Below are positions 19,381-47,411 of a DNA stretch of 52,543 nucleotides, one piece after another. Every line of letters starts with the position of its first letter. Position 1 is the stretch's first letter. This stretch comes from an uncultured Candidatus Saccharibacteria bacterium (GTDB lineage: Bacteria; Patescibacteriota; Minisyncoccia; Phycocordibacterales; UBA2135). The translations under genes were made by a program, and so were the position numbers. Where the stretch lies: contig CAZNJQ010000002.1 of assembly GCA_964573545.1 (NCBI GenBank), positions 1 to 52,543 of the forward strand. Reading direction: 5' to 3'. The notes beneath the pieces are model-generated. The model was not told the DNA's origin, did no database searches, and worked only from the letters and a program-made list of their open reading frames with translations.

Positions 19381-19440
19381 TGCCGCGCATCGCTGGAGCT
19401 TTTGTTGTACCACAATTTTTTACACTGTATACTACGATGT

Positions 19441-21222
19441 ATGCGTTCTGAAGAGATACGAAAACGATTTCTGGAATTTTTCAAAAAACGGGGACACGCC
19501 ATAATTCCTTCAGCGCCCTTGGTGCCGGAAAACGATCCTTCGGTGCTCTTTACAACTGCTGGCATGCAGCCGCTTGTTCCCTATCTGCTCGGAGAAAAGC
19601 ATCCGGCAGGTGACACGCTCGCAAACGTTCAAAAATGCGTGCGGACGCAAGACATTGAAGAAGTAGGGGACAAAACCCACGATACATTTTTTGAAATGCT
19701 GGGGAACTGGTCTTTGGGTTCATATTTTAAGAAAGAGGCAATTCGGTGGAGCTATGAATTCTTGACCTCGAAAGAAGAAGGGCTCGGGCTTGCGCCGGAA
19801 CGGCTCTACGTGACCGTTTTTGGCGGCAACAAGGACGCGCCGAAAGACACGGAATCATTTGAAATATGGAAATCGATCGGAGTCCCCGAAAATCACATCT
19901 TTTTCATGGAAGGAGAGCTTGCCGAGAAAAACTGGTGGGGTCCGGGCAGTGACGGGCCATGCGGTCCGGATACGGAGATGTTTTATGATGTTGTCGGCGG
20001 GCTTAGTTTTAAATCTTTGGATGAATTTCTTGCGGCAGATGCCAATCAGGAAATAGTCGAAATATGGAATGACGTCTTCATGGAATATGAAAAAAGAGAC
20101 GGGAAGGTGATAGGGAAACTGAAACAGAAAAACGTTGATACGGGCGCCGGCCTCGAGCGGCTCGCGATGGTGATGCAGGGAAAAGACAATATCTTTGACA
20201 CAGATTTATTTTCCGGCTTGATGAAAGAAATCAGCGAGATGGCATCAAGTGACAGTATCCGCGCGAAGCGCATCATTGCAGACCATATCCGCACCGCCGT
20301 CTTTATCATCGGCGATGGTGTCGTGCCGTCGAATACTGACAGAGGATACATACTGCGCCGCTTACTCCGCCGCGCCGTACGATACAGCGACGTTTTAGGA
20401 ATTAAGAAAGAATTTCTGCCGGCACTCGCTAGTGAAGTGGTGCAGAAATATAGAGAGGTATATCCAAATTTACTCCGGAAATCGGAAGAGATACAGCAGG
20501 AAATTGCCAAAGAGGAGGAGAAATTCAGAAGGACGCTCGCGAAAGGGGAGAAAGAATTCGAGAAGTTTTCTCGAGTCGGCATTTCCGGTGCGGATGCGTT
20601 CATGCTTTTCTCAACATACGGATTTCCAATAGAAATGACCACAGAGATGGCGGAAGAAAAGGGTATCGCAGTGGATGTGCTTGGGTTTGCTGAAGAGATG
20701 AAGAAACATCAGGAACTTTCGCGAATCGGCGCAGAAAAAAAATTCAAAGGTGGACTTGCAGACACAGGTGAAGAGACGACACGACTCCACACTGCCACGC
20801 ACCTTATGCTCGCAGGTTTGCGCAAATATTTAGGAGACCATGTCCATCAGGCGGGTTCCAATATCACAACCGAGCGAACGCGTTTTGATTTCACACACCC
20901 GGAGAAAGTGTCGCGCGAGATTCTTGATAAAGTTGAAGCGTATGTGAACGAGGCGGCTGCAAAAAGATGCAATATTATAGTGCGCCAAGTTCCCAAGGAG
21001 CAGGCAAAAAAGGAAGGCGTTGAGGGGAGTTTCTGGGAAAAATATCCCGCGGTGGTGAATGTCTATGAAGTACGATGCGCCGACGGTTCAACATATTCGA
21101 GCGAACTCTGCGGCGGACCGCATGTTAAAAATACCTCTGAACTTAAAGGGGTTTTCAAGATACTGAAAGAAGAAGCGGTTTCGGCGGGAGTCCGCCGCAT
21201 CAAAGCGGTTCTTGAGAGGTAG
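19441..21222 (+). CDS. alaS: Alanine--tRNA ligase, short form (593 aa, no C-Ala/DHHA1 domain)
   Basis: MRSEEIRKRFLEFFKKRGH...LFTTAGMQP.... Editing-domain motifs HTATHLM and CGGPHV lie near the C-terminus. Confidence 0.9.
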   Translation: MRSEEIRKRFLEFFKKRGHAIIPSAPLVPENDPSVLFTTAGMQPLVPYLLGEKHPAGDTLANVQKCVRTQDIEEVGDKTHDTFFEMLGNWSLGSYFKKEAIRWSYEFLTSKEEGLGLAPERLYVTVFGGNKDAPKDTESFEIWKSIGVPENHIFFMEGELAEKNWWGPGSDGPCGPDTEMFYDVVGGLSFKSLDEFLAADANQEIVEIWNDVFMEYEKRDGKVIGKLKQKNVDTGAGLERLAMVMQGKDNIFDTDLFSGLMKEISEMASSDSIRAKRIIADHIRTAVFIIGDGVVPSNTDRGYILRRLLRRAVRYSDVLGIKKEFLPALASEVVQKYREVYPNLLRKSEEIQQEIAKEEEKFRRTLAKGEKEFEKFSRVGISGADAFMLFSTYGFPIEMTTEMAEEKGIAVDVLGFAEEMKKHQELSRIGAEKKFKGGLADTGEETTRLHTATHLMLAGLRKYLGDHVHQAGSNITTERTRFDFTHPEKVSREILDKVEAYVNEAAAKRCNIIVRQVPKEQAKKEGVEGSFWEKYPAVVNVYEVRCADGSTYSSELCGGPHVKNTSELKGVFKILKEEAVSAGVRRIKAVLER

Positions 21223-23281: not shown

Positions 23282-23354
23282 GCCGCCTTAGCTCAGTTGG
23301 TAGAGCAACGGTTTTGTAAACCGTAGGTCCGGAGTTCGAGTCTCCGAGGCGGCT
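23282..23354 (+). tRNA. tRNA-Thr (anticodon TGT)
   Basis: Acceptor GCCGCCT/AGGCGGC, D-arm GCTCAGTTGGTAGAGC, anticodon arm ACGGT-TTTGTAA-ACCGT, T-arm CGGAG-TTCGAGT-CTCCG, discriminator T. No encoded CCA. Confidence 0.9.
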
Positions 23355-23460
23355 CTCACTGGTTTCTAATCCTATCGTACGTTTGTATATGTGCGCGATT
23401 CTAGACATTGGTGTACGCCAGTGTTAAGATTTTTTCAGATGCATTATTAGGAGAAGCGCG

Positions 23461-23925: not shown

Positions 23926-24696
23926 ATGGATAAATCTATGCCGCTTCCAAAACAAAAAGATGGTCACCTACACCCCCTCACGCACATCATTAGAGACAGT
24001 GTGGAAATTTTTAGCAGGATTGGTTTCGAAGTGGTTTTGGGACCCGAGGTAGAGACAGAATACTATAATTTTGACGCCTTAAATATTCCCGCTAATCATC
24101 CTGCCCGCGATCTATGGGATACGTTCTGGCTTAAGCCCGGGAAAGAAGGACTAGAGACCAGGGAATTGCTCCGGACACATACGAGCCCGGTACAGATACG
24201 ATATATGGAAGCCCATACGCCGCCGCTCCGGATCATTGTCCCCGGAAAAGTATTCCGGTATGAAGCGACAGATGCGACACATGAGGCGCAATTTTTCCAA
24301 CTCGAAGGTCTTTTGGTCGAGAAAAATGCCTCTCTTGCAATGCTCAAAGGCACCCTGGAAGTCTTCTTCAGAGAATTTTTCGGGAAAAAGATAGGTATTC
24401 GGTTTCGCCCGAGTTATTTTCCGTTCGTCGAACCGGGTGTCGAAGTCGATATGTCGTGCTTCAAATGCGGAGGAGGCGGTTCCGGATGCGCTCTGTGTAA
24501 AGAGACCGGATGGATCGAGATCATGGGCGCAGGCATGGTCCATCCGAGGGTCCTCCAGAATGCCGGCATCCATAGTGAAAAATGGCGCGGATTTGCGTTC
24601 GGGGTCGGCATTGATCGGCTTGCAATGCTCAAGTATGGGATTCCGGATGTCCGGCTCTTGTATTCGGGGGATTTGCGAGTTATCAATCAATTCTAG
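23926..24696 (+). CDS. pheS: Phenylalanine--tRNA ligase alpha subunit, short form (256 aa)
   Basis: HPLTHIIRDSVEIFSRIGF...NFDALNIPANHPARD...FRPSYFPFVEPG. The track start at 23884 lies inside the terminator. Confidence 0.9.
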   Translation: MDKSMPLPKQKDGHLHPLTHIIRDSVEIFSRIGFEVVLGPEVETEYYNFDALNIPANHPARDLWDTFWLKPGKEGLETRELLRTHTSPVQIRYMEAHTPPLRIIVPGKVFRYEATDATHEAQFFQLEGLLVEKNASLAMLKGTLEVFFREFFGKKIGIRFRPSYFPFVEPGVEVDMSCFKCGGGGSGCALCKETGWIEIMGAGMVHPRVLQNAGIHSEKWRGFAFGVGIDRLAMLKYGIPDVRLLYSGDLRVINQF

Positions 24697-24727
24697 GCCG
24701 GCTCGTTTTGTATTACAGGATCGTGCT

Positions 24728-27061
24728 ATGAAAATTTCTTATAATTGGCTTCAAGATTATTTCTCGGCATCTCTGCCGGCACCGGAAAAACTCGCGGAGC
24801 TTCTTACATTCCATGCGTATGAAGTGGAATCCCTCGAGAAGGTCGGCGACGACACAGTTTTTACCATTGACGTACTACCGAACCGAGCCGGTGACTCACT
24901 TTCTCATCGGGGTGTCGCGCAGGAACTCTCCGGGTTATTGAAGAAGCCACTGCAAAAGGACCCGTTCAAGGGCATCCAGAAAGAACTGAAGAAATCAGAG
25001 CGATTATTTCTGGATATACCCGCTGATTCTCCATGCTCTCGATATAGCGGCGCTTTTATTGAAAATATCGCCGTCTCTGAATCCCCGGATTGGCTCAAAA
25101 AGAGGCTCATGTCGGTAGGGCAAAAACCAATAAATGTAATCGTCGATATTGCGAACTATGTCATGTTCGATATCGGCCAGCCGCTCCATGCATTTGACGC
25201 CGGTGCTCTAGCACAGAGACGCGGTATGTATACCATACGTGTTCGGAATGCACGAGGCGGAGAGCGCATAGAGACACTAGATGGAACGCTTCAGGCACTT
25301 TCGCCGGAAAATCTCCTTATCGTCGATGGAGGAAATGACGCTCCGCTTGGTATCGCTGGCGTGAAAGGTGGTATGAGTGCTGCAGTAAATTCCGCTACAA
25401 GAAATATTATTCTTGAAGCAGCGCACTTTGATAGCGGTGTAATCCGTAAATCGGCGCAGGGCGTCAAGCTTCGAACGGATGCATCAGTACGGTTTGAGAA
25501 TGATCCTCCACCGGAACTTACGCGGTATGCGCTTGAGCAAGCGACGTCGTTAATTCAGGGGATCGCGGGCGGTAGAGCGGAAGGTTTTATCGACTTCTAC
25601 CCGGCGCCTGATGCGCCGTATCGTACCGGAGTTTCTCTCTCCGAGATCAACGCAGTGCTTGGCGTACGCATATCTTCCGGAGAGATTGAAAAGATTTTCG
25701 AGAGGCTTGCATTCGGGTATTCGAAAGTGAAGCCCCTCCAAGAGATACTAAAGACGGCTGAGGCGCTTATCGGCGTCCCGTATAAATACGGTGCGCGCAT
25801 ACGGAAAGACGCACCACGCGCCTTCGATTGCTCGTCATTTTTAAGCTACATATTTACCCAAGGAGGAATTCGTATCCCGCGCATGGCTATTGATCAATAT
25901 TTTTATGGCGACGAGATCAAAAAAAAGAACGATTTTAGGCCCGGAGATGTTGTATTTTCAGTCGATGCAAAGGATTCTCATATCCGCCATGAATCAAAAG
26001 ATTTTCTCAGGGGTGGAAAAGTTCCAGAAGGAGTAAGTCACTGCGGGTTATACATCGGCAAAGGAGACGTTATACACGCTTCTGGCGCTACGGGTGCGGT
26101 TGTGCGGGAATCTTTAGAGGAGAGCAGGGGTTTTACTCACATTGTCGGATTACGGAGAATGTTCCAAAGCAAAGAGCCGAGGTTTGTCGTCACAGTCCCT
26201 TTTTGGCGGCGGGATATACGCATAAAAGAAGATTTGATAGAAGAAATAGGTCGTTTGTACGGATATAGAAGTGTCGCCCTGAAGGCGCCGAATCGCCCCC
26301 GGAAGAAGCCGATTCCCAACACGATGGCTGTATACCGGGAACTCGTGAGCACACTGCTTTGCAGCGCAGGATTTTCTGAGGTGTATACATATGTATTTCG
26401 TGAAAAAGGCGCCCGAGAGCTCTTAAATCCGCTTGCATCTGATAAAAAATTCCTGAGGAAAAACCTCCGTGACGGGCTTTTGCAGAGCCTCTCGCTAAAC
26501 TCGAAGAATAAGGCGTTACTCGGGGTATCATCCGTGAAAATTTTTGAGATAGGGAACGTTTTTGAGGCAGGACGCGAACATATCTCATTGGGTGTCGCCG
26601 CCCAAGATGCGCGAGTACTTCACGATATCGTCATTCCGGGTTTAAAAAAGATCAATCCGCACGCTTCTCTTCCGGTAGACGGGAATATCCTTGAACTTGA
26701 TTTTGATGCCTTTATCAAAAATCTTCCGGCAGTCCGTGTTCGTTCCGTACACACAGAAGATACGCTTAGAATCAAATATGTTCCGTTTTCCGAATACCCA
26801 TTTGCTCTGCGCGATATCGCAGTGTGGGTTCCGGGAAAAATTAAATCTCATGATGTGCAGGCCGTACTGGAAAAACAGAGCGGACCCTTCCTCATCCGTG
26901 CCGACATATTCGATGAATATAGGAAAGATGGCAACGTGTCGTATGCGTTTCGCCTTGTTTTCCAATCACATGAAAAAACACTTTCTGATGATGAGGTTGG
27001 CGCCATAATGCAAACTCTCACGAATTTTTTGAACTCGAAGCCAGGATGGCACGTGAGGTAG
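24728..27061 (+). CDS. pheT: Phenylalanine--tRNA ligase beta subunit (777 aa) with an inserted NlpC/P60 domain
   Basis: MKISYNWLQDYF..., B3/4 (PLHAFD, GIAGVKGG), B5 (VTVPFWRRDIRIKEDLIEEIGRLYGY) and a C-terminal FDX-ACB-like region. The track ORF start at 24437 overlaps pheS. Confidence 0.9.
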   Translation: MKISYNWLQDYFSASLPAPEKLAELLTFHAYEVESLEKVGDDTVFTIDVLPNRAGDSLSHRGVAQELSGLLKKPLQKDPFKGIQKELKKSERLFLDIPADSPCSRYSGAFIENIAVSESPDWLKKRLMSVGQKPINVIVDIANYVMFDIGQPLHAFDAGALAQRRGMYTIRVRNARGGERIETLDGTLQALSPENLLIVDGGNDAPLGIAGVKGGMSAAVNSATRNIILEAAHFDSGVIRKSAQGVKLRTDASVRFENDPPPELTRYALEQATSLIQGIAGGRAEGFIDFYPAPDAPYRTGVSLSEINAVLGVRISSGEIEKIFERLAFGYSKVKPLQEILKTAEALIGVPYKYGARIRKDAPRAFDCSSFLSYIFTQGGIRIPRMAIDQYFYGDEIKKKNDFRPGDVVFSVDAKDSHIRHESKDFLRGGKVPEGVSHCGLYIGKGDVIHASGATGAVVRESLEESRGFTHIVGLRRMFQSKEPRFVVTVPFWRRDIRIKEDLIEEIGRLYGYRSVALKAPNRPRKKPIPNTMAVYRELVSTLLCSAGFSEVYTYVFREKGARELLNPLASDKKFLRKNLRDGLLQSLSLNSKNKALLGVSSVKIFEIGNVFEAGREHISLGVAAQDARVLHDIVIPGLKKINPHASLPVDGNILELDFDAFIKNLPAVRVRSVHTEDTLRIKYVPFSEYPFALRDIAVWVPGKIKSHDVQAVLEKQSGPFLIRADIFDEYRKDGNVSYAFRLVFQSHEKTLSDDEVGAIMQTLTNFLNSKPGWHVR
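25730..26179 (+). other. NlpC/P60 papain-like domain inserted in the PheT B5 domain (~150 aa)
   Basis: GVPYKYG...AFDCSSF (Cys codon 25829-25831), ...RPGDVVF..., SHCGLYIG (His codon 26039-26041), DVIHAS (His codon 26075-26077). Confidence 0.75.
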
Positions 27062-27143: not shown

Positions 27144-29372
<2,229 letters not shown>

Positions 29373-29382
29373 GGTCTTTAAT

Positions 29383-30636
29383 TTAGAGAGTTCTTTCCGC
29401 AATCTCCTTTTTTAATTTTTTGACGAGTTCTTCAGCCGGCAATTGAAGCGCTTCTTTTTTGTCGCGGCTTTCAAGAGTTATTGTGCTAGATTCGACTTCT
29501 TTGTCTCCGACGATGGCGAGATAGGGGATTTTCTGCTCTTTCGCCACCCTGATTCTTTTGCCGAGAGTTTCATTCTCTCCGTAGAGCTCTGTTCGGATTC
29601 CGCTTTCATGAAGCTTCTTTCGCACTTCCTCTGCATAGGCTTTATGTTTGTCGCTTACAGGGAGTATCGCGATCTGAACAGGTGAGAGCCAGAGCGGGAA
29701 AGCGCCTGCGTAGTGCTCGATAAGGAATGCCATAATGCGTTCGATAGCACCGATAGATGAACGGTGCACGACGAACGCGCGCTTTTTGGAGCCGTCAGAA
29801 CCGATGTACGACAAATCAAACCGGTCGGGCATGCAGAAATCGTATTGCACGGTGAACGCCGTGTCTTCTTTGCCATTTACGTTCTTCATCTGAATGTCTA
29901 TTTTGGGGCCGTAAAACGCGGCTTCGTTCCTCGCTTCACCGAACGCGCTTCCTCGTTTTGTGAGAAGCTCGCGGAGGAGCATCTCGCTTTTTTCCCATGC
30001 CGCATCGTTTTTGTAGTATTTTTCCGTATTTGCGCGGTCGCCGAGCGATAGCCGGTAGTGGTAATGCTCTCCATATACGAGGCCGAATGTTTTAGTGACA
30101 TATTCAATAAGGTCGAGCGCTTTACCGATCTCCGCAATCGCTTCTTCTTCTGAAGCGCAGATAATATGTGCATCCGCAAGACAGAATGTCCGGACTCTCT
30201 GGAGACCCATAAGCTCTCCTGATTGCTCATAGCGATAGAGGCGCGCGATTTCCGCAATACGCATAGGGAGTTCACGATAGCTTCTCGGCCTCGAAAGATA
30301 AAGCTGAAAATGGTGTGGGCACGTCATTGGCCGGAGCATGAATTTCTCATCATCGATCTCTATTGGCGCATACATGGAATCCTTGTAATGCGGATAATGT
30401 CCGGATTTGATGTAGAGTTCGAGCTTTGCGATATCGGGAGTATACACATGGAGATATCCGCGACGAATTTCCTCGTCGACGATAAAACGTTCCAGCTCAC
30501 GTCGTATGGTGGCGCCTTTCGGGGTAAAGAGCGGCAGGCCTTTACCGACGGTCTCGTCTATATAATATAAATCGAGCTTTCGTCCAAGTATCTTATGGTC
30601 GCGTTCATCGCGCTTCTGTTCATCAGGCGTGTTCAT
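29383..30636 (-). CDS. thrS: Threonine--tRNA ligase, catalytic plus anticodon-binding domains only (417 aa)
   Basis: DHKILGRKLDLY..., class II core (FMLRPMTCPHH, RVRTFCLADAH), and a C-terminal HGTP-anticodon-like region (SPVQIAILPVSDK). No TGS or N2 editing region. Confidence 0.85.
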   Translation of the reverse strand: MNTPDEQKRDERDHKILGRKLDLYYIDETVGKGLPLFTPKGATIRRELERFIVDEEIRRGYLHVYTPDIAKLELYIKSGHYPHYKDSMYAPIEIDDEKFMLRPMTCPHHFQLYLSRPRSYRELPMRIAEIARLYRYEQSGELMGLQRVRTFCLADAHIICASEEEAIAEIGKALDLIEYVTKTFGLVYGEHYHYRLSLGDRANTEKYYKNDAAWEKSEMLLRELLTKRGSAFGEARNEAAFYGPKIDIQMKNVNGKEDTAFTVQYDFCMPDRFDLSYIGSDGSKKRAFVVHRSSIGAIERIMAFLIEHYAGAFPLWLSPVQIAILPVSDKHKAYAEEVRKKLHESGIRTELYGENETLGKRIRVAKEQKIPYLAIVGDKEVESSTITLESRDKKEALQLPAEELVKKLKKEIAERTL

Positions 30637-34855: not shown

Positions 34856-35749
34856 ATGGCTAACCGGCACCTTTCCAGAAGTATAGTGATGCAAACACTC
34901 TTTGAGTGGGATTTTAACGGTTGCAACGATAGCCGTATCTTTGATATTCTCGTGCGCAACGCAGGAGAGTTCGCTCCCGGGGCAGGTGATTCATCATATA
35001 TCAAAGATCTGATCGCGGGCATCCTGGAAAAGCGCACGACTCTCGATTCGATCATCATAAAAGCGGCGCCAGAGTGGCCGATCGATAAAATCTCCATTAT
35101 CGACCGGAACATTCTTCGCATCGGTTTGTACGAACTCTTGTTCACGGACAGGAGTGAAGTTCCCGCGAAGGTCGCGATCAATGAATCTATCGAGCTTGCG
35201 AAATCGTTCGGCGGGGAGAATAGCAGTAAATTCGTGAACGGAGTTTTGGGCGCCGTATATCGCGAGCTTGGAGAGCCCGGCAAGGACGATGGCGGAAGTC
35301 GTAAGGCACGCAAGAATGTCGATTTCAATAAGATGCCGATAGAGAAGCTGGGAGGCGCGGTTGTCTATGCGAAGAACGGCGGAGAGATCCATCTCGCCCT
35401 CGTCCACGATGTATTCGGACGCTGGACGCTTTCAAAAGGGAAGATAGAGGAAAAAGAAGACGAAGCGGCGGCTACTGTGCGTGAAATAAAAGAAGAGATC
35501 GGCGTTGATATCGCGATACAGGGAAAGATCGGTAAAAATGAGTATGTCGCGTCAGACCCGGAACGGGGGAAAATACGAAAACAAGTGACATACTTTTTGG
35601 GCGAGGCTTCATACGGAGATCTCACGCTCGAATCTTCCGGGGGGCTTGACGGGGCACGATGGTTCTCGCTTGAAGAACTTCCGCAGCTTAAAATGTACGA
35701 CGACATACTCCCCATAGTCGCGAAAGGAATACAGATGATTACTAAATAA
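34856..35749 (+). CDS. nusB: NusB antitermination factor fused to a C-terminal Nudix hydrolase domain (297 aa)
   Basis: The NusB core is ...IIDRNILRIGLYELLF...AINESIELAKSFGGENSSKFVNGVLG. A perfect Nudix box GKIEEKEDEAAATVREIKEEIGV lies at 35438-35506. Confidence 0.85.
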   Translation: MANRHLSRSIVMQTLFEWDFNGCNDSRIFDILVRNAGEFAPGAGDSSYIKDLIAGILEKRTTLDSIIIKAAPEWPIDKISIIDRNILRIGLYELLFTDRSEVPAKVAINESIELAKSFGGENSSKFVNGVLGAVYRELGEPGKDDGGSRKARKNVDFNKMPIEKLGGAVVYAKNGGEIHLALVHDVFGRWTLSKGKIEEKEDEAAATVREIKEEIGVDIAIQGKIGKNEYVASDPERGKIRKQVTYFLGEASYGDLTLESSGGLDGARWFSLEELPQLKMYDDILPIVAKGIQMITK

Positions 35750-41812: not shown

Positions 41813-41895
41813 TTTTGTCTAGTTCGGATAGCCGAAATGTCTTACAATTAAAGGGTAACGAGAACTCTTTAAAACTGTCATCTCGGTTCTTGGCA

Positions 41896-44800
41896 ATGGA
41901 ATCAGAATTTTTTTTGGAAGGAAAAAAATATATCTCGTCAAAACAAGCTGGCGAGTTGTTCGGCTACACGAGTGACTACATTGGCCAGCTTTGTCGTGCT
42001 AAAAAACTGGATGGGAAAATACTCGGCAAGACGTGGTTCATAACCGAGGAATCGCTATTGGCGCACCAGAACAAGAAGAACGAGAAACAGAGTAAGAAAA
42101 ACAGACCTCGTCCTGCCGAGGATGCTCGCCCAGACGAAGAATCAATAAGTTACGTAGAAATGTGGGGGAGTGCCCCATCTCCGCAGCGCTCTTTAAAAGA
42201 AGAACGTTCGGGTGAAATACATATCACTCGTTCTTATCGCGCCCTAGAAGATATTGATAGTTCTTGGGAACAAGTTCTCTTCTCCGGCAGTTCAGCGGGA
42301 GAGTATGCGATACGTAAAAATATTTCCGAGAAAAAAACTGCGCTATCTCAAGCAGGCTCTGTGCAAGTGACAATCTCGCAGAACTTTTCTCAAAAAGAAA
42401 AAAATGCTCCCGCGTCACGGTATGGCATTTTGCGAAATGAATTTGAAAAACAAAATAAGCGCACCAAAGAAGACCGGCTGGTTGGAAACTTTTTACAAAC
42501 GACTACTAGATTTAGCGATTTCATCTCTCCGCGAACCGCACTCCAATTTACTGCATTCATTTTTATGCTGTCGGCGATAGGGGGCGGTGCGTTTTATGCG
42601 AACAATGTTTTTACATACGACAGAAGCTCCTCATATGCAGCCTCTGAAACTGCATCGGAAAAACTCCTGACCATGGCTGAAAACTGGAGCGATAGAATGG
42701 TGACAAAAATCTCGACTTTTGATGACAAAATTGTCGCGAGAACGGCTGGTTTCGCAGCGAAACTCGATGGTATTCTGGCACAAGAAGATGTATTCGAAAA
42801 GGAAGTCGTTTTGCTACAAGACCAAACGCCGGAAAACCAAGAATCCCAAGATTTTCAAGGGTTTTCTGTCTTCTCACGAGGTATTGCGCAATTTCTTAAC
42901 GCTTTCGGAGAAGAGCTCTCGACTATTACTCGCAGCGCAATGACTTCTATAACATCTGGAGCGCGGGAATATCTGCAGGTCATAAAAGCCACAGTTCACT
43001 ACGTGAAATACGATCCAAGTTCGCTATTCTCTAACCGTATAAGTACGCGGTACTATGTCTCATTTATCGACACAACGATCAGAGATGAAAGCGCCCGGGA
43101 AAGGCTTGCAACGTTCTCGCTACCATCGCTTATACCCGACATATCGTCTATCGCATTGCATACCGGAATAAAATATGCCGCATTTGTAACGTATCAAAGC
43201 ATACATACTACGGGAGATATTTTGAAAGCAGGCTATTCATTATTCTTCGAGACCGATGAGGATATGACCCACGTCGCGGTTATCGAGCCTAAGCAAGAAG
43301 AAAGGGAATCAATTCTCTCCGAAAAAATTTCCGCGCTTGAACAAGAAATCAAGTATCTCAAGACTCAAGGAGTTTCTGTCGTATTCTCTCCCGGCGCTCC
43401 CGCTATCGTAGAGCGGGCAATCGAGCGAGTTACCCCGGGGGTCTCCGATGCGATTCTTGACGATAAATTAAATACGCTCGAAAACAAACTTCGCCAGGAA
43501 ATTTTTAGAGTACAGGGTTCGACGAACTCAACCGTACAAAGCAACGCTCGCGCAATTGCGCTTACAAACGTCATCAATCGCTTATCGAATGTCACTATCA
43601 CGGATGCAACCGTAAGTGGCGTCTCTGGTCTTACCGATGCGGACATACCGAACGATATTGTTGCGTCAAATTACTTGCCGCTTGCGGGAGGAACGCTTAC
43701 CGGAACCCTGACGGGGACGAATGCCGTATTTACCGGCACACTGGGAGTTGGGACTACAACACCTTCAGAAGATTTTGCGGTCGCGAATCGCATCTATGTG
43801 GGTGGCACGGGCACTTCGACTATACAAAACAACTTAAGCATCTTAGGTTCTATCGCCATCGGCAATGTGTGTATCAACTGCGACTCAAGCGGCGGATTCT
43901 CGGGAGCAGGTATCTCAGCTTCCGCAACATCCACGTTCTCAGCGCCGCTTATTGCGACATATGTACCACCGAATGCCCACACCTTCCCTGCATGGTCAAT
44001 TGGCGCAAGTGGCTCAAATGTCACAAGCGCATCGCTTGTCATTAATCCAGCATCGGCATCTTCCGATACGAACCTGCTGGGTGTCGCGGTTAACGGCGCC
44101 GTCCGGTTCCTTGTTGATGCGGAGGGAGATGTGTTCGCGAACTCACTGACGTCCGTTGGCGGGGAGACACTCTCAACGACGACTATCGCAACCCTTACTG
44201 TCGAAAACAACTCGACGTTGGGTGACGCAACAACGACAGACAGGGTCTATTTTAACTCTCGTATTGGCTCGTCTCTTATCCCGACGGCAAACAATATCTT
44301 GAATATCGGGGACACGACAAATGGTCTCGCGTGGCGAACGGGAATTTTCGGAACTTCACTCGGTGTCGGCACAACGTCTCCTTCATGGCCGCTTGCGGTC
44401 GCCGGAGCCGGTTCTTTTGACGACTACGTGCGCGCATCGTATTTTAATGCCACGTCGAGCACAGCAACCTCGACATTCTCGGGCGGCTTAACCGCAAACA
44501 ATATCAAGATCGGTTCCGGCACATATCTCTTCAATGCGGCCACGTCTTCGTTCACGCAAGGCATCAATATTTCCGACGGCTGCTTCTCCGTCGACGGCGT
44601 GTGCGTCGTCGGACGCGTCACTTCAGTAACCGCAAATGCAAACAATACGCTCACGATCTCTCCCACATTTGGTGATGTGGTCGCAGGATTAAACCTTTCG
44701 AATCCAAACACATGGACAGGGCTCCAGCAATTCTCCGCAGGAGCATCGACAACACGCCTCTCTGTCATCGACACGTTCTATGTTGGAGGAACCGCGACAA

Positions 44801-45552
44801 CAACACTCCAGGGGAACACGACGGGCACATCAACCATTCAAGGTTTCTTGAACGTAATGGGAACAAACTCAACTTCGACATTCAGCGGCGGCATCCAGGC
44901 GACATATCTCAATATAACGGGAACTATCGCGACATCGACATTCGCGAACGGCATATCGTTGACGTCGGGATGTTTCCGGTTGCCTGACGGTTCGTGTGCC
45001 GGTTCCGGAGGAGGGTCTCTTCTCAACAGCGCACTCACGAAAGGATACTTCGTGGTCGGCAATGACGCCGGATTATCACAGGCGACATCTTCAATCTTTT
45101 TGTCTTCGACCGGAAATTTCGGCATCGGTACCACATCACCATGGACGCGCCTTTCTGTCACGAACACCGTTTCCTCTGCGCAGGTGTCAATCGCATATGA
45201 TGCGGCGACATACGCCACATTCCAGGTCGATTCGGTGGGAGACCTTATCGGCGACCCGCAAGGGAACGATTTCCGCTTGAATGACGACAACCTCTGGGTC
45301 TGTGCGAGCGGCGCCTGTCCTACGGGGAGCCCGGTCGGTACGGGAAATCTTATAATAGAAACTGCCATAGGTATCGCCTCATCCACGCCATGGACTGGGT
45401 ACGAACTTGCGGTTGCGGGAGATATCATCATAACGGCGACAACAACCCTTGGTAACAACTTCAAATTTGCGCCAATGGTGGGCACAACGACGGAAATGGG
45501 CCTCTACAACTCATCCGGTTCGCTTATCCTCATCTTCGACGAATGGCAGTAA
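41896..45552 (+). CDS. Giant membrane protein: N-terminal excisionase/MerR-like HTH, one TM helix, coiled coil, tail-fibre-like Gly/Thr/Ser-rich ectodomain (1218 aa)
   Basis: The HTH is YISSKQAGELFGYTSDYIGQLCRAKKLDGKILGKTWFITEESL. The TM segment is LQFTAFIFMLSAIGGGAFYA (about 42538-42613). Fibre motifs are NYLPLAGGTLTGTLTG and a recurring (L/I)G(V/I)GTT(S/T)P...L.V. Confidence 0.8.
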   Translation: MESEFFLEGKKYISSKQAGELFGYTSDYIGQLCRAKKLDGKILGKTWFITEESLLAHQNKKNEKQSKKNRPRPAEDARPDEESISYVEMWGSAPSPQRSLKEERSGEIHITRSYRALEDIDSSWEQVLFSGSSAGEYAIRKNISEKKTALSQAGSVQVTISQNFSQKEKNAPASRYGILRNEFEKQNKRTKEDRLVGNFLQTTTRFSDFISPRTALQFTAFIFMLSAIGGGAFYANNVFTYDRSSSYAASETASEKLLTMAENWSDRMVTKISTFDDKIVARTAGFAAKLDGILAQEDVFEKEVVLLQDQTPENQESQDFQGFSVFSRGIAQFLNAFGEELSTITRSAMTSITSGAREYLQVIKATVHYVKYDPSSLFSNRISTRYYVSFIDTTIRDESARERLATFSLPSLIPDISSIALHTGIKYAAFVTYQSIHTTGDILKAGYSLFFETDEDMTHVAVIEPKQEERESILSEKISALEQEIKYLKTQGVSVVFSPGAPAIVERAIERVTPGVSDAILDDKLNTLENKLRQEIFRVQGSTNSTVQSNARAIALTNVINRLSNVTITDATVSGVSGLTDADIPNDIVASNYLPLAGGTLTGTLTGTNAVFTGTLGVGTTTPSEDFAVANRIYVGGTGTSTIQNNLSILGSIAIGNVCINCDSSGGFSGAGISASATSTFSAPLIATYVPPNAHTFPAWSIGASGSNVTSASLVINPASASSDTNLLGVAVNGAVRFLVDAEGDVFANSLTSVGGETLSTTTIATLTVENNSTLGDATTTDRVYFNSRIGSSLIPTANNILNIGDTTNGLAWRTGIFGTSLGVGTTSPSWPLAVAGAGSFDDYVRASYFNATSSTATSTFSGGLTANNIKIGSGTYLFNAATSSFTQGINISDGCFSVDGVCVVGRVTSVTANANNTLTISPTFGDVVAGLNLSNPNTWTGLQQFSAGASTTRLSVIDTFYVGGTATTTLQGNTTGTSTIQGFLNVMGTNSTSTFSGGIQATYLNITGTIATSTFANGISLTSGCFRLPDGSCAGSGGGSLLNSALTKGYFVVGNDAGLSQATSSIFLSSTGNFGIGTTSPWTRLSVTNTVSSAQVSIAYDAATYATFQVDSVGDLIGDPQGNDFRLNDDNLWVCASGACPTGSPVGTGNLIIETAIGIASSTPWTGYELAVAGDIIITATTTLGNNFKFAPMVGTTTEMGLYNSSGSLILIFDEWQ

Positions 45553-46730: not shown

Positions 46731-47411
46731 CTACTCCAACGCTAGGTTTTTTCCGGTCGTTACGGAAAAATTCTTGAGCATTTCCGGTATTGATTTCGCG
46801 TACCCTTTTTCTCCTTCAAAAAATTCTAGTAAAAACTCGCGTTGGGTGAGTGAAGGAAAGTTTTTCTTTCCCATGTAATCCAGATGACTGCTCCACCGGT
46901 ATGTATTGAGATGCTCTGCCGCCATTTTCGGATTTTTGATGCCACGCTCCCTCCATTCCGGCAGTGTCAGATCAAGGGGGTTAAAATGGATGTAATAGGG
47001 AATCCATGAAAAGTGCCTGTCGCTGTCTATCGGCACCGATTTATATTTTCCTTGAAACAATGCGCCGCTTCTCTCATATCGTTCGTTAAAATATTTTGCA
47101 TACCCGCCATTCAATTTTTTCATAAAAAGCGGTACGCCATCATGAGCGAGCGGGGACACAAGCAGGTGATAATGATTCGGCATCAGACAAAACGCATGGA
47201 TATGTACCAACAATATCCTCTTTCTTCTCCCCACTTTTTCAAATACTGGACGTCGGACGTCCAGTATTTGAAAATTGCGGGTATTGTTAGTGTCAACATT
47301 TGCGACATCATTAAATTCAAACATATCGTGCATAAATCGAACATGATCTTTCTCATCAAGAAAGATAGTTCTTTTATCAACACCCCGGTTAAGTATATGA
47401 AAAAGCATCAT
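46731..47411 (-). CDS. IS200/IS605-type Y1 (HUH) transposase of the REP-associated tyrosine transposase (RAYT) kind
   Basis: The HUH motif is CLMPNHYHLLV. The catalytic Tyr region is YYIHFNP, followed by YRWSSHLDY. The gene is single-copy and flanked by palindromic REPs. Confidence 0.8.
   Translation of the reverse strand: MMLFHILNRGVDKRTIFLDEKDHVRFMHDMFEFNDVANVDTNNTRNFQILDVRRPVFEKVGRRKRILLVHIHAFCLMPNHYHLLVSPLAHDGVPLFMKKLNGGYAKYFNERYERSGALFQGKYKSVPIDSDRHFSWIPYYIHFNPLDLTLPEWRERGIKNPKMAAEHLNTYRWSSHLDYMGKKNFPSLTQREFLLEFFEGEKGYAKSIPEMLKNFSVTTGKNLALE
47236..47274. repeat. REP copy 1: 39-nt palindrome inside the RAYT ORF
   Basis: TTTTCAAATACTGGACGTC-G-GACGTCCAGTATTTGAAAA. Translated in frame (- strand) as FQILDVRRPVFEK. 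Confidence 0.9.

What the first reader, a model, noticed from the sequence alone, without database searches (positions are those of the whole stretch)
25730..26179. NlpC/P60 papain-like hydrolase domain, with an intact Cys-His-His triad, inserted inside the B5 domain of PheRS beta
PheT is collinear with canonical beta subunits (B1, B3/4 with PLHAFD and GIAGVKGG, B5, C-terminal FDX-ACB-like). The exception is about 150 extra residues between the first half of B5 (...ISSGEIEKIFERLAFGYSKV) and its conserved second half (VTVPFWRRDIRIKEDLIEEIGRLYGY). The insert reads GVPYKYG-x9-AFDCSSF...IPRMAIDQY...FRPGDVVF...SHCGLYIG..DVIHAS. This is the NlpC/P60 signature, with the nucleophile Cys (25829), His (26039) and the third polar residue His (26075) all present. 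NlpC/P60 proteins are normally secreted cell-wall amidases or cytoplasmic acyl/thioester hydrolases and acyltransferases. I know of no characterised aminoacyl-tRNA synthetase containing one. Because the triad is intact, the domain is probably catalytic. Plausible roles are an extra proofreading or deacylase activity on mis-acylated or N-acylated aminoacyl-tRNA, or an aminoacyl-transfer activity linking Phe-tRNA to a peptide or cell-wall precursor. The canonical B3/4 editing site also appears intact, so this would be an added function rather than a replacement.
Basis: partly seen in the sequence, partly recalled or inferred. Interest (0 to 1): 0.75.

Follow-up and report, generated by a model that had tools for sequence, protein, structure and literature searches.

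The report
Cell-wall-type peptidase nested inside PheRS beta
The beta subunit of this uncultivated bacterium's phenylalanyl-tRNA synthetase has a complete, apparently active cell-wall-type cysteine peptidase inserted into one of its small domains; the insert is conserved across a whole clade and survives as its own gene where the rest of the subunit was lost, so it looks like an undescribed passenger enzyme rather than an extra proofreading site.

Summary
pheT (24728-27061) encodes a 777-aa PheRS beta subunit. Residues 335-484 (nt 25730-26179) are a full NlpC/P60 domain (Pfam 1.5e-18; TM 0.88 to C. difficile autolysin 7CFL) inserted in the beta-hairpin of B5.

It is not an assembly artefact. 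All 120 best homologues (42-50% identical, Paceibacteria/Parcubacteria) share the architecture. Cys368 is invariant and the full Cys-His-His triad is kept in 115 of 118.

The proposed proofreading or aminoacyl-transfer role is not supported:
- The gamma-D-Glu recognition signature of peptidoglycan DL-endopeptidases is conserved.
- The domain is acidic.
- Related Paceibacteria PheTs lack the insert entirely, apparently cleanly removed.
- In other relatives the whole of PheT is gone, replaced by a mitochondrial-type monomeric PheRS, yet a 200-230-aa B5::NlpC/P60 gene with an intact triad persists.
- That stand-alone gene is sometimes divergent from pheS or located elsewhere in the genome.
- The module is linked, by adjacency (12 of 20 loci, against 0 of 9 insert-less loci) and by fusion, to a cytoplasmic C39-like cysteine peptidase.

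Best reading (about 0.5): an autonomous cytoplasmic gamma-D-glutamyl (murein-peptide-type) peptidase that uses B5 as scaffold and rides on PheT. I found no description in the literature. It is a new variant of known kinds.

The parts
23926..24696 (+). pheS: PheRS alpha subunit, catalytic core only (about 256 aa from the first ATG), with no N-terminal coiled coil
   Evidence: Pfam tRNA-synt_2d covers residues 15-270 of the 270-aa ORF and nothing else matches. TIGR00468 matches from profile position 63. The same short PheS occurs in insert-bearing and insert-less Paceibacteria.
24728..27061 (+). pheT: PheRS beta subunit, 777 aa. Domain order is B1, B3/4, B5 with nested NlpC/P60, catalytic-like module, FDX-ACB. 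B2 is absent.
   Evidence: The AF2 model has pLDDT 93 and pTM 0.74, and its top Foldseek hits are bacterial PheRS beta chains (1pys_B, 2iy5_B, E about 1e-46).
25034..25570 (+). B3/4 editing domain (residues 103-281). Its key residues are His154 (nt 25187) and Glu230 (nt 25415).
   Evidence: Pfam B3_4 8.5e-53. Mapped onto Tth beta-His261 and beta-Glu334. Conserved in 118/118 and 117/118 relatives. The roles of these residues are taken from PMC3275996.
25616..25729 (+). N-terminal half of B5 (residues about 297-334). It carries the motif Y-[KR]-x-G-x-S, which is typical of insert-bearing B5 domains (one insert-less B5, L010, has the similar FKVGVR).
   Evidence: First B5 stretch in Pfam. DSSP gives E298-303, H304-311, H317-327, E330-334. 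Gly301 is invariant, Ser303 is 115/118 and Tyr298 is 101/118. The motif is absent from most insert-less B5 domains.
25730..26179 (+). NlpC/P60 (peptidase C40) domain, residues 335-484, inserted in the B5 beta-hairpin
   Evidence: Pfam PF00877 at 1.5e-18. PDB 7cfl at 1.7e-16. Foldseek TM 0.88 to 7cfl, and 2.0 Å rmsd to YkfC 3h41. pLDDT 89-98.
25829..25831 (+). Codon of the catalytic nucleophile Cys368 (motif FDCSS)
   Evidence: 118/118 in orthologues and 17/17 in the stand-alone set.
26039..26041 (+). Codon of catalytic His438 (motif GVSHCGLY)
   Evidence: 116/118.
26075..26077 (+). Codon of the third triad residue, His450 (motif VIHAS)
   Evidence: 116/118.
25961..26029 (+). Family-specific extra beta-hairpin (residues about 412-434) just before the catalytic-His strand. 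It is absent from solved NlpC/P60 structures. Its length varies from 14 to about 34 aa, with the motif E-x-x-E-[FY]-x-x-G-[TK]-x-V.
   Evidence: Gap in the 7cfl and 4xcm alignments. Conserved motif seen. Its role is inferred only.
26180..26272 (+). C-terminal half of B5 (residues 485-515), carrying the Mg2+/alpha-interface ligands Asp496, Asp502, Glu505 and Glu506
   Evidence: Second B5 stretch in Pfam. Mapped to Tth D452, D458, E461 and E462. Conserved in 115-118 of 118. This is the most conserved segment of the protein, at 0.70. The Mg2+ role is from my own knowledge of the Tth structure.
26318..26572 (+). Catalytic-like module (the part matched by Pfam)
   Evidence: PF17759 at 1.6e-10.
26789..27058 (+). 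FDX-ACB anticodon-binding domain (B8)
   Evidence: PF03147 at 4.2e-18.
27186..29372 (+). gyrB, directly downstream. In most relatives a Peptidase_C39_2 gene sits between pheT and gyrB; here it is absent.
   Evidence: Pfam. Locus maps. No C39_2 anywhere in the window.

Best explanation
The insert is a genuine, catalytically competent NlpC/P60 (C40) cysteine peptidase domain nested in the beta-hairpin ('wing') of the B5 domain of PheRS beta. The host is a Paceibacteria (Patescibacteria/CPR) bacterium.

The nesting, the fold, the conservation and the clade-wide spread are shown. Also shown: B5 and NlpC/P60 form one compact module that can exist without any other PheRS-beta domain.

The following is inferred. 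The module is an autonomous cytoplasmic hydrolase that merely rides on the essential pheT gene. Its S1 pocket is built for gamma-D-glutamate. Its most likely reaction is therefore cleavage of the gamma-D-Glu-(L-Lys/mDAP) amide bond in peptidoglycan-type stem peptides. These could be imported or recycled muropeptides, or surplus precursors. The chemistry would be the usual Cys-thioester mechanism of DL-endopeptidases. B5 and a family-specific hairpin would play the accessory role that SH3b domains play in YkfC. In most relatives the module would work together with a co-transcribed cytoplasmic C39-like cysteine peptidase. It would not take part in aminoacylation or editing of tRNA-Phe.
For: 1. 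Real and under selection. All 120 best homologues carry PF00877 inside PheT. At least 116 of the 150 best 50%-identity representatives are PheTs or PheT fragments with the insert. Cys368 is 118/118 and the full triad is 115/118. Conservation is 0.49, against 0.54 for B3/4 and 0.37 for the catalytic-like module.

2. Peptidoglycan DL-endopeptidase type. All sequence and fold neighbours are gamma-D-Glu-DAP endopeptidases: Acd24020, CwlT, MepS, LytE, CwlO, RipA/B and YkfC. The gamma-D-Glu S1 signature defined on YkfC (Tyr226, Asp237, Ser239, small residue at 257; PMC2954226) is present. Tyr352 is 118/118, Asp367 109/118, Ser369 116/118, and position 387 is S/A/T in 114/118.

3. Separable from PheRS in both directions. 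Insert-less Paceibacteria PheTs exist, with a clean hairpin, and form one clade nested among the insert-bearers. In loci syntenic with the window (rpsB-tsf...gyrB-thrS-dnaE), PheT is reduced to a 199-233-aa B5::NlpC/P60 gene with the triad 17/17. It lies next to a mitochondrial-type PheS+FDX-ACB gene. In L170/L171 that pheS is on the opposite strand. In L167 the module lies far from pheS. In the stand-alone forms the B5 Mg2+/alpha-interface ligands are degenerate (KEDLIEE becomes KENLIxx).

4. Partner peptidase. A Peptidase_C39_2 gene without a signal peptide lies directly downstream in 9 of 13 full-length and 3 of 7 stand-alone loci. It lies downstream of 0 of 9 insert-less loci (Fisher p = 0.0017 for the full-length loci). 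It is fused to the module in P0219 and P0260.

5. Peptidoglycan context. The fusion gene P0219 lies beside murG, a Peptidase_S11 (D-Ala-D-Ala carboxypeptidase family) gene and mraY. The window itself encodes MurB and GlmS, so it makes peptidoglycan precursors.

6. Not tRNA-like. Median insert pI is 5.4.

7. Compact module. The AF2 model of residues 295-520 has pLDDT 95 and pTM 0.91.

8. Precedent. Cytoplasmic NlpC/P60 murein-peptide endopeptidases are known (B. subtilis YkfC, DPP VI; PMC2954226).
Against: - No biochemical data exist; the substrate is inferred from sequence signatures only.
- The YkfC residue numbering was transferred by motif register and fold match, not by a direct alignment to the YkfC sequence.
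- An unrestricted cytoplasmic DL-endopeptidase could destroy UDP-MurNAc-peptide precursors, so some gating has to be assumed.
- The Trp228-equivalent position is variable: Y/F/L, and Arg in many stand-alone forms.
- Nine of 118 proteins have Ser in place of the S1 Asp, co-varying with loss of the PR arginine.
- The stand-alone gene overlaps the stop codon of pheS in several loci (L081, L084). It also keeps both B5 halves. Both facts would also fit a factor that still works with PheRS.
- In lineages with the monomeric PheRS the B3/4 editing site is gone, so retention of the module as a trans-editing factor is conceivable.
- I could not obtain model coordinates, so the position of Cys368 relative to the tRNA CCA end is unknown.
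- The window itself has no C39_2 partner within its 52 kb.
- The adjacency statistics are not corrected for phylogeny, and the gain/loss tree has no support values.
Confidence: 0.5

Rival explanations
1. One reading: the NlpC/P60 cysteine acts on aminoacyl-tRNA. Either it hydrolyses mis-acylated or N-acylated aa-tRNA-Phe as an additional editing site (in trans when stand-alone), or it takes Phe from Phe-tRNA-Phe as a thioester and passes it to an amine acceptor such as a peptide or cell-wall precursor.
For: - The domain sits in an aaRS, next to the B5 segment that contacts the alpha subunit.
- Stand-alone copies keep both B5 halves and often overlap the stop codon of pheS, much as free-standing editing-domain homologues lie near their synthetases.
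- In those lineages the B3/4 editing domain has been lost together with PheT.
- Cys-thioester chemistry is compatible with ester hydrolysis or acyl transfer (my own knowledge of LRAT-type relatives).
Against: - The conserved S1 signature is the one that binds gamma-D-Glu.
- No similarity to any editing domain was found, and LRAT matches are below threshold.
- All fold neighbours are peptidoglycan endopeptidases.
- The domain is acidic.
- The module occurs away from pheS or divergent to it.
- It is fused or adjacent to another peptidase, not to any tRNA-related protein.
- The alpha-interface ligands decay in the stand-alone forms.
- A clade of PheTs lacks the insert while keeping the same truncated PheS and B2-less PheT.
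Confidence: 0.12
2. The module is an autonomous cysteine hydrolase, but its substrate is not a murein peptide. Together with the C39-like peptidase it processes some other cytoplasmic amide or isopeptide: a gamma-glutamyl compound, a peptide precursor, or a protein conjugate.
For: - The partner belongs to the C39/C70 papain-like peptidases, which typically process peptides or proteins.
- The family-specific hairpin, the B5 accessory and the variable Trp228-equivalent suggest a remodelled groove.
- A sub-lineage has changed the S1 Asp and the PR arginine.
- A cytoplasmic peptidoglycan endopeptidase would need protection against futile cleavage of precursors (inference).
Against: - The gamma-D-Glu S1 residues are conserved at 92-100%.
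- The nearest structures and HMMs are all peptidoglycan enzymes.
- One fusion gene lies among murG, mraY and a Peptidase_S11 gene.
Confidence: 0.2
3. The domain is mainly structural or regulatory. It would be a scaffold that stabilises the minimal PheRS or replaces lost tRNA-binding parts (B2, the alpha coiled coil), or a muropeptide-binding sensor that tunes PheRS. Catalysis would be irrelevant.
For: - This PheRS has lost B2 and the alpha coiled coil.
- The insert packs rigidly on B5.
- Three of 118 orthologues have lost one or both histidines.
Against: - The triad and the S1 residues are nearly invariant, which a scaffold would not need.
- Insert-less relatives have the same truncated PheS and B2-less PheT, so nothing needs compensating.
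- The module survives without PheT.
- The domain is acidic and so unsuited to RNA binding.
Confidence: 0.07
4. Artefact: a chimeric assembly, a mobile or intein-like insertion, or a chance motif match.
For: None found.
Against: - The reading frame is continuous and the composition uniform.
- HMM and fold matches are far beyond chance.
- The insertion point is identical in hundreds of independent assemblies at 42-50% identity.
- No intein or transposase signatures were detected.
Confidence: 0.01

Closest known systems
Bacterial PheRS beta subunit (PheT; TIGR00472; Thermus thermophilus 1PYS/2IY5, E. coli 3PCO)
   Same: B1, B3/4 with the editing residues His/Glu/Asn/Gly, B5 with the Mg2+/alpha-interface acidic residues, the catalytic-like module and the FDX-ACB anticodon-binding domain are all present and collinear. 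The protein scores above the TIGR00472 cut-off.
   Different: A 150-aa NlpC/P60 domain is nested in the B5 hairpin (about Tth 432-438). The B2/EMAP domain (Tth 39-151) is missing. The partner alpha subunit lacks the coiled coil.
NlpC/P60 (MEROPS C40) peptidoglycan DL-endopeptidases: C. difficile Acd24020 (7CFL) and CwlT, E. coli MepS/Spr, B. subtilis LytE/CwlO, mycobacterial RipA/B
   Same: Same fold (TM 0.8-0.89), Cys-His-His triad, conserved Tyr, the motifs DCS and PR..Q, and the gamma-D-Glu S1 signature.
   Different: It has no signal peptide and no wall-binding domains, and is embedded in a cytoplasmic synthetase. It carries an extra 14-34-aa hairpin before the catalytic His. Its accessory domain is B5 rather than LysM, SH3b or a coiled coil.
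YkfC / dipeptidyl-peptidase VI (cytoplasmic gamma-D-Glu-L-diamino-acid endopeptidases of murein-peptide recycling; 3H41)
   Same: A cytoplasmic NlpC/P60 whose accessory domain packs against the catalytic domain. Same S1 residues. 2.0 Å rmsd over the domain.
   Different: It lacks the subfamily-defining Asp256 (here Met/Ile/Val) and the SH3b tyrosine. It should therefore not require a free N-terminal L-Ala.
aaRS editing domains and free-standing trans-editing factors (PheRS B3/4, AlaX, YbaK/ProX, DTD)
   Same: A hydrolase module inserted in an aaRS that also occurs as a stand-alone gene next to the synthetase gene.
   Different: The fold is unrelated, the active-site signature is that of a peptidase, and the domain is acidic. 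It is linked to a second peptidase and is also found away from pheS.
Mitochondrial monomeric PheRS (FARS2; 3CMQ). Relevant to the neighbour of the stand-alone module, not to the window gene.
   Same: The PheS of the stand-alone loci is an alpha core fused to FDX-ACB. Its best match is human mitochondrial PheRS (1.5e-62, against 1.7e-34 for bacterial alpha subunits).
   Different: It is bacterial (Paceibacteria). It scores below the TIGR00469 cut-off (236 against 258 bits).

Membership tests
NlpC/P60 (Pfam PF00877, MEROPS C40) | HMM score above the curated gathering threshold | tested here: met
   60.3 bits for the whole protein and 67.1 bits for the insert alone, against a cut-off of 23.
NlpC/P60 (Pfam PF00877, MEROPS C40) | Papain-like alpha+beta fold with the nucleophile Cys at a helix N-terminus and His on a beta-strand | tested here: met
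   AF2 pLDDT 89-98 over the insert. Foldseek TM 0.88-0.89 and rmsd 2.6-3.4 Å to 7cfl. Helix 368-378 starts at Cys368, and His438 opens strand 438-444.
NlpC/P60 (Pfam PF00877, MEROPS C40) | Catalytic Cys-His dyad plus a third polar residue, and the conserved catalytic Tyr | tested here: met
   Cys368 118/118, His438 116/118, His450 116/118, Tyr352 118/118.
NlpC/P60 (Pfam PF00877, MEROPS C40) | Hydrolytic activity on an amide bond | not testable with these tools
   Needs an enzyme assay with a C368A control.
gamma-D-Glu-specific DL-endopeptidase subgroup of NlpC/P60 | S1 signature Tyr226 / Asp237 / Ser239 / small residue at 257 (BcYkfC numbering, PMC2954226) | tested here: met
   Tyr352 118/118, Asp367 109/118, Ser369 116/118, position 387 S/A/T 114/118. 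The register was transferred through the 7cfl alignment and the motif spacing.
YkfC / DPP VI subfamily (requires a free N-terminal L-Ala) | Acidic residue at position 256 paired with a Tyr from an SH3b domain | tested here: not met
   Position 386 is Met/Ile/Val in 112/118, and there is no SH3b domain.
LRAT / PLAAT acyltransferase branch of the NlpC/P60 superfamily | PF04970 match above threshold, or fold neighbours from that branch | tested here: not met
   No LRAT hit for the window protein. The stand-alone homologues score 17-20 bits against a cut-off of 24.3. No LRAT/PLAAT structure appears among the top 50 Foldseek hits.
Bacterial PheRS beta subunit (TIGR00472 pheT_bact) | Equivalog HMM above the curated cut-off | tested here: met
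   417.4 bits against a cut-off of 402.65.
Bacterial PheRS beta subunit (TIGR00472 pheT_bact) | B3/4 editing-site residues (Tth His261, Glu334, Asn250, Gly315) | tested here: met
   His154, Glu230, Asn143 and Gly211 are present in the window and in at least 115/118 relatives. The Thr249 and Glu323 equivalents are Ala in the window.
Bacterial PheRS beta subunit (TIGR00472 pheT_bact) | Full canonical domain set B1-B8, including B2 (EMAP/OB fold) | tested here: not met
   No tRNA_bind/B2 match. Query residues 1-39 and 41-327 align to Tth 1-38 and 152-431. B2-less PheTs also occur in insert-less relatives and in other phyla.
Bacterial PheRS beta subunit (TIGR00472 pheT_bact) | Partner alpha subunit encoded directly upstream | tested here: met
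   pheS lies at 23926-24696, 31 nt upstream. TIGR00468 scores 301 bits against a cut-off of 237.
aaRS editing / trans-editing domains (B3_4, tRNA_edit/YbaK, tRNA_SAD/AlaX, DTD) | Sequence or fold similarity of the insert to any of these | tested here: not met
   The insert matches only NlpC/P60 families in Pfam, NCBIfam, the PDB and Foldseek.
Anti-phage defence systems (PADLOC) | Match of the module or its C39_2 partner to a defence-system model | tested here: not met
   No hits at E <= 0.01.

The most novel reading that the evidence does not exclude
The B5::NlpC/P60 module is a tRNA-linked enzyme after all. It would be a papain-like cysteine hydrolase or transferase that uses the B5 winged-helix domain to dock on PheRS or tRNA-Phe. 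It would then either deacylate aberrant (N-blocked, D- or mis-charged) Phe-tRNA, or take Phe from Phe-tRNA-Phe as a thioester and add it to a gamma-D-Glu-containing cell-wall peptide. That would be a tRNA-dependent cell-wall or quality-control activity built into a synthetase, and kept as a trans-acting factor where PheRS became monomeric and lost B3/4 editing.
Probability: 0.1. Interest if true: 0.9.

Novelty: new variant of a known kind. Interest (0 to 1): 0.66.

Why it matters
Additions of catalytic domains to bacterial aminoacyl-tRNA synthetases are rare. None of the catalogued aaRS domain superfamilies in the AARS Online text I read is a papain-like peptidase.

Here a complete, selected cysteine peptidase sits inside an essential translation enzyme. 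It is found in at least 116 distinct 50%-identity protein clusters of a major uncultivated clade. Public annotation calls these proteins only 'beta subunit-related protein' or 'C40 family peptidase'.

The comparative data give a ready-made natural experiment, with three states:
- insert present;
- insert absent;
- the rest of PheT deleted with the module kept.

They also name a partner enzyme (a C39-like peptidase) and small stand-alone proteins that are easy to express. The function is therefore directly testable.

If the murein-peptide reading is right, it points to a cytoplasmic peptidoglycan-peptide salvage or turnover route. Such a route would belong to symbiotic, biosynthetically poor Patescibacteria.

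As a by-product, the survey shows Paceibacteria with a mitochondrial-type monomeric PheRS. The review PMC3275996 describes that form as the only known monomeric class II catalytic module and as restricted to mitochondria.

Tried and rejected
- Mis-assembly or chimera: rejected. The frame and composition are continuous, and the same insertion point recurs in all 120 best homologues and in 16 metagenomic loci.
- Degenerate pseudo-enzyme: rejected. The triad is kept in 115/118 and the S1 residues are conserved.
- Compensation for the lost B2 domain or alpha coiled coil: rejected. Insert-less Paceibacteria have the same truncated PheS and B2-less PheT.
- LRAT-type acyltransferase: only sub-threshold Pfam hits, and no fold neighbours.
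- Defence system: no PADLOC hits.
- Literature: seven searches on NlpC/P60, PheT, PheRS, CPR and Patescibacteria found no description. The first attempt failed on syntax.
- Function of the C39_2 partner: the profile search against the PDB gave only remote, uncharacterised C39-like hits (3erv 2.2e-05), and NCBIfam gave none. This was uninformative.
The clade boundaries are therefore only roughly known.
- Geometry of Cys368 relative to the tRNA: not obtainable, because model coordinates are not exposed and no multimer prediction is available.
- Co-occurrence of the stand-alone module with insert-less PheT in the same genome: could not be tested, because only 10-kb flanks are retrievable.
- Neighbour-joining tree for gain and loss: it has no support values and a star-like backbone, so I use it only as 'compatible with one gain plus secondary loss'.

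Full report
**What is in the sequence.**
The ORF 24437-27061 on the plus strand contains pheT. It starts at ATG 24728, with an AGGA 8 nt upstream, and lies 31 nt after pheS. The 777-aa product matches these Pfam families:
- B3_4 at 103-281 (8.5e-53);
- B5 in two separate stretches, the second being residues 480-513 = profile positions 34-67;
- NLPC_P60 from residue 349 (1.9e-16);
- the catalytic-like module;
- FDX-ACB.

It passes the NCBIfam equivalog for bacterial PheT (417 bits against a cut-off of 403). The 150 residues encoded by nt 25730-26179 score 67 bits on their own against PF00877, whose cut-off is 23. They align end to end with solved NlpC/P60 endopeptidases (7cfl 1.7e-16, 4xcm 1.2e-13).

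**Where exactly the domain is inserted.**
Alignment with Thermus thermophilus PheRS beta gives query 1-39 = Tth 1-38, query 41-327 = Tth 152-431 and query 479-617 = Tth 435-582. Two conclusions follow:
- The insert replaces the tip of the B5 beta-hairpin.

Insert-less Patescibacteria PheTs (575-628 aa) read '...RLGF-x-YKEQEGVFEVxPPFxRLD...' at the point where the window protein reads '...RLAFGYSKV-[150 aa]-PRFVVTVPFWRRD...'. An AlphaFold2 model built on 118 homologues is confident (pLDDT 93, pTM 0.74; 89-98 over the insert). It shows B5 strand 330-334, then the NlpC/P60 domain, then B5 strand 485-490. Modelled alone, residues 295-520 give pLDDT 95 and pTM 0.91, that is, one compact unit. Foldseek finds bacterial PheRS beta for the whole protein. 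For the insert it finds only peptidoglycan DL-endopeptidases: Acd24020 7cfl at TM 0.88, then CwlT, MepS, LytE, CwlO, RipB and YkfC 3h41 at 2.0 Å.

**Not an artefact and not a relic.**
All 120 best database homologues (42-50% identical, about 770-835 aa) carry PF00877 together with B3_4, B5 and FDX-ACB. They come from NCBI, JGI, ENA and Logan assemblies. Their labels are Paceibacterota, Parcubacteria, Yonathbacteria, Lloydbacteria and Patescibacteria. NCBI names them 'phenylalanine--tRNA ligase beta subunit-related protein' or 'C40 family peptidase'. With the insert as query against 1.84 billion 50%-identity representatives, the best 150 sort as follows:

| Class | Count |
|---|---|
| Full-length PheT with the insert | 99 |
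| PheT fragment with the insert | 17 |
| Short module-only protein | 11 |
| Module + C39_2 fusion | 2 |
| Ordinary NlpC/P60 protein | 21 |

Cys368 is invariant. His438 and His450 are each 116/118, and the full triad is kept in 115/118. Mean column identity of the insert is 0.49. This equals B1 (0.48), is close to B3/4 (0.54) and FDX-ACB (0.52), and exceeds the catalytic-like module (0.37).

**The host PheRS.**
The B3/4 editing residues named in PMC3275996 are present:
- His154 = Tth beta-His261, 118/118;
- Glu230 = beta-Glu334, 117/118;
- Asn143, 118/118;
- Gly211, 115/118.

In the window protein the second-tier positions Thr249 and Glu323 are Ala. The B5 acidic residues that bind the Mg2+ shared with the alpha subunit (Tth D452, D458, E461, E462; their role is from my own knowledge) are Asp496, Asp502, Glu505 and Glu506. 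They are conserved in 115-118 of 118. PheS is the catalytic core only, with no N-terminal coiled coil. The same short PheS accompanies insert-less Paceibacteria PheTs. The insert therefore does not compensate for that loss.

**What kind of NlpC/P60.**
NCBIfam neighbours are RipC, EntFM, p60, RipB and MepS. The YkfC structure paper (PMC2954226) defines the residues that recognise gamma-D-Glu in the S1 pocket as Tyr226, Asp237, Ser239 and a small residue at position 257, flanking Cys238 and His291. It states that this is the most conserved site of the family. Transferred by motif register, the PheT family has Tyr352 in 118/118, Asp367 in 109/118 and Ser369 in 116/118. Position 387 is Ser/Ala/Thr in 114/118. 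The YkfC-subfamily marker Asp256, which imposes a free N-terminal L-Ala, is Met/Ile/Val here. There are two family-specific features:
- An extra hairpin of 14 to about 34 residues (412-434) lies just before the catalytic-His strand. It is absent from all solved relatives.
- B5 strand 1 carries the motif Tyr-[Lys/Arg]-x-Gly-x-Ser. It is typical of insert-bearing B5 domains and absent from most insert-less ones; L010 has the similar FKVGVR.

I infer that both contribute to the substrate groove or to the domain interface. This would resemble the SH3b domain of YkfC.

**The natural deletion experiments.**
This evidence changes the interpretation.

(i) Paceibacteria PheTs without the insert exist. 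In a rough neighbour-joining tree built without the insert columns, they form one clade nested among the insert-bearing ones. This is compatible with one gain and a later clean loss. The tree has no support values.

(ii) The protein searches also returned complete proteins of 199-233 aa. Each consists of the N-terminal half of B5, the NlpC/P60 domain and a degenerate C-terminal half of B5. The triad is kept in all 17 aligned.

(iii) Their genes sit at the pheT position of contigs syntenic with the window (rpsB, tsf, a 133-aa ORF ... pheS, X, gyrB, thrS, dnaE). No other PheT domain is left there.

(iv) The adjacent pheS encodes 379-389 aa, made of the alpha core plus FDX-ACB. Its best PDB match is human mitochondrial PheRS (1.5e-62, against 1.7e-34 for bacterial alpha subunits). 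In these lineages a monomeric, mitochondrial-type PheRS made the beta subunit dispensable. Everything was deleted except the B5::NlpC/P60 module.

(v) In the stand-alone forms the Mg2+/alpha-interface motif KEDLIEEIGRxYGY has decayed to KENLIxE....

(vi) The gene's relation to pheS differs between loci:

| Locus | Arrangement |
|---|---|
| L081, L084 | The gene overlaps the pheS stop codon |
| L170, L171 and the P0190 locus | pheS is on the opposite strand |
| L167 | The module lies far from pheS, after an AAA/RuvB_N-type gene |

**A partner enzyme.**
A gene of 168-206 aa for a Peptidase_C39_2 protein follows pheT in many loci. It has no signal peptide. Gln, Cys, His and Asp are invariant (motifs 'YSQ...RACG', 'H..V.GY' and 'DP'). 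It starts within a few bases of the pheT stop. The counts are:

| Type of locus | C39_2 gene directly downstream |
|---|---|
| Full-length insert-bearing, with downstream sequence | 9 of 13 |
| Distinct stand-alone | 3 of 7 |
| Insert-less Patescibacteria pheT | 0 of 9 |

Fisher's test gives p = 0.0017 for 9/13 against 0/9, not corrected for phylogeny. In L167 the module and the C39_2 gene travel together as a pair. In P0219 and P0260 they are fused into one protein. The P0219 gene lies beside murG, a Peptidase_S11 (D-Ala-D-Ala carboxypeptidase family) gene and mraY. The C39_2 family is small (336 clusters) and confined to Patescibacteria. It has only remote, uncharacterised structural relatives. 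The window itself has no C39_2 gene; gyrB follows pheT directly. The window does encode MurB and GlmS, so the organism makes peptidoglycan precursors.

**Interpretation.**
Four things are shown:
- The domain is a real, selected NlpC/P60 nested in B5.
- It has spread across a clade.
- The B5::NlpC/P60 unit can be separated from PheRS in both directions.
- It is genetically linked to a C39-like peptidase.

The rest is inferred. I read the module as an autonomous cytoplasmic cysteine hydrolase, most likely cleaving gamma-D-Glu-(Lys/mDAP) bonds of murein-type peptides. This would be analogous to cytoplasmic YkfC and DPP VI, but without their N-terminal restriction. It would serve salvage or turnover of wall peptides in organisms with little biosynthetic capacity. 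On this reading PheT is a carrier, not a functional partner. I put this at about 0.5.

The rival readings are:
- An autonomous hydrolase with a different, non-murein substrate (0.2).
It is weakened by the S1 signature, the acidic pI (median 5.4), the relocation away from pheS, the decay of the alpha interface and the peptidase partner. It is kept alive by the retention of both B5 halves, by the overlap with pheS in some loci, and by the loss of B3/4 in the monomeric lineages.
- A structural or regulatory role (0.07).
- An artefact (0.01).

**Novelty.**
Seven literature searches found no description of this architecture. The text of the AARS Online paper that I read lists no peptidase-like domain among the aaRS domain superfamilies. 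The proteins are present in databases but generically named. I class the finding as a new variant of known kinds: a canonical PheRS beta subunit and a canonical NlpC/P60 domain in an unprecedented nested combination. The added, unreported observations are the stand-alone relic, the C39-like partner and a mitochondrial-type PheRS in bacteria.

**Limits.**
- There are no coordinates and no multimer model, so the geometry relative to the tRNA is unknown.
- The substrate assignment rests on sequence signatures only.
- The locus samples are small and phylogenetically non-independent.

Noticed in passing
L081 8862-10001, L084 8856-10004, L166 435-1580, L170 4794-5963 (relatives of the window; no such gene in the window): Some Paceibacteria encode a 379-389-aa PheS made of the alpha catalytic core fused to the FDX-ACB anticodon-binding domain. 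Its best match is human mitochondrial PheRS (1.5e-62, against 1.7e-34 for bacterial alpha subunits). It scores 236 bits on TIGR00469 pheS_mito and 231 bits on the 'PheS-related mystery ligase SrmL' model. This is a bacterial monomeric-type PheRS. The review PMC3275996 treats that form as unique to mitochondria.
   Followed up: partly
L081 10001-10669, L084 10001-10681, L166 1606-2286, L167 6001-6600, L170 6001-6669: Stand-alone genes of 199-233 aa encoding B5::NlpC/P60 sit at the former pheT position or elsewhere. They are what remains of PheT after it became dispensable, and the Cys-His-His triad is intact.
   Followed up: yes
L001 6021-6623, L081 10666-11172, L087 7514-8041, L088 7517-8116, L093 7180-7734, L167 6593-7159; fusion proteins P0219, P0260: A small family of Peptidase_C39_2 proteins restricted to Patescibacteria, without signal peptides (168-206 aa, invariant Gln/Cys/His/Asp). 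It is encoded directly after pheT(NlpC/P60) or after the stand-alone module, and is sometimes fused to the module. Its function is unknown.
   Followed up: partly
window 23926-24696 and 24728-25030: This is a minimal PheRS. PheS lacks the N-terminal coiled coil that binds tRNA in canonical bacterial enzymes, and PheT lacks the B2/EMAP domain. Both traits are shared with insert-less Paceibacteria.
   Followed up: yes
window 29383-30636 (-): ThrRS is only 417 aa, made of the class II core plus the HGTP anticodon-binding domain. It has no TGS or SAD N-terminal editing region. A relative (L170) has a 582-aa ThrRS with a weak tRNA_SAD match.
   Followed up: partly
window 19402-21222 (+): AlaRS is short (606 aa): tRNA-synt_2c plus a tRNA_SAD stretch ending at residue 600. 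It apparently lacks the C-terminal (C-Ala) region.
   Followed up: no
window 34856-35749 (+); also L081 20163 onward: A NusB-NUDIX fusion protein (297 aa), conserved at the same syntenic position in a relative.
   Followed up: no
family-wide (9 of 118 PheT homologues, e.g. P0143; stand-alone P0240, P0251; fusions P0219, P0260): A sub-lineage of the module has FSCSS in place of FDCSS and MPS in place of IPR. The S1 Asp and the following Arg thus change together, while Cys and His are kept. This suggests altered substrate specificity.
   Followed up: partly
window 41815-45552 (+): A 1245-aa ORF with no Pfam match at E <= 1e-4. An IS200-like transposase (46731-47411, -) and an RCC1-repeat protein (47636-48736) lie nearby.
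   Followed up: no
window 23282-23355 (+): The only tRNA gene in the window is tRNA-Thr(TGT). It lies between the tsf-linked 133-aa ORF and a 134-aa predicted membrane ORF, upstream of pheS.
   Followed up: no
window 3317-5971 (+): The Pfam SecA_DEAD, P-loop and Wing/Scaffold matches of SecA are each split into two stretches. This hints at insertions in this housekeeping protein too.
   Followed up: no
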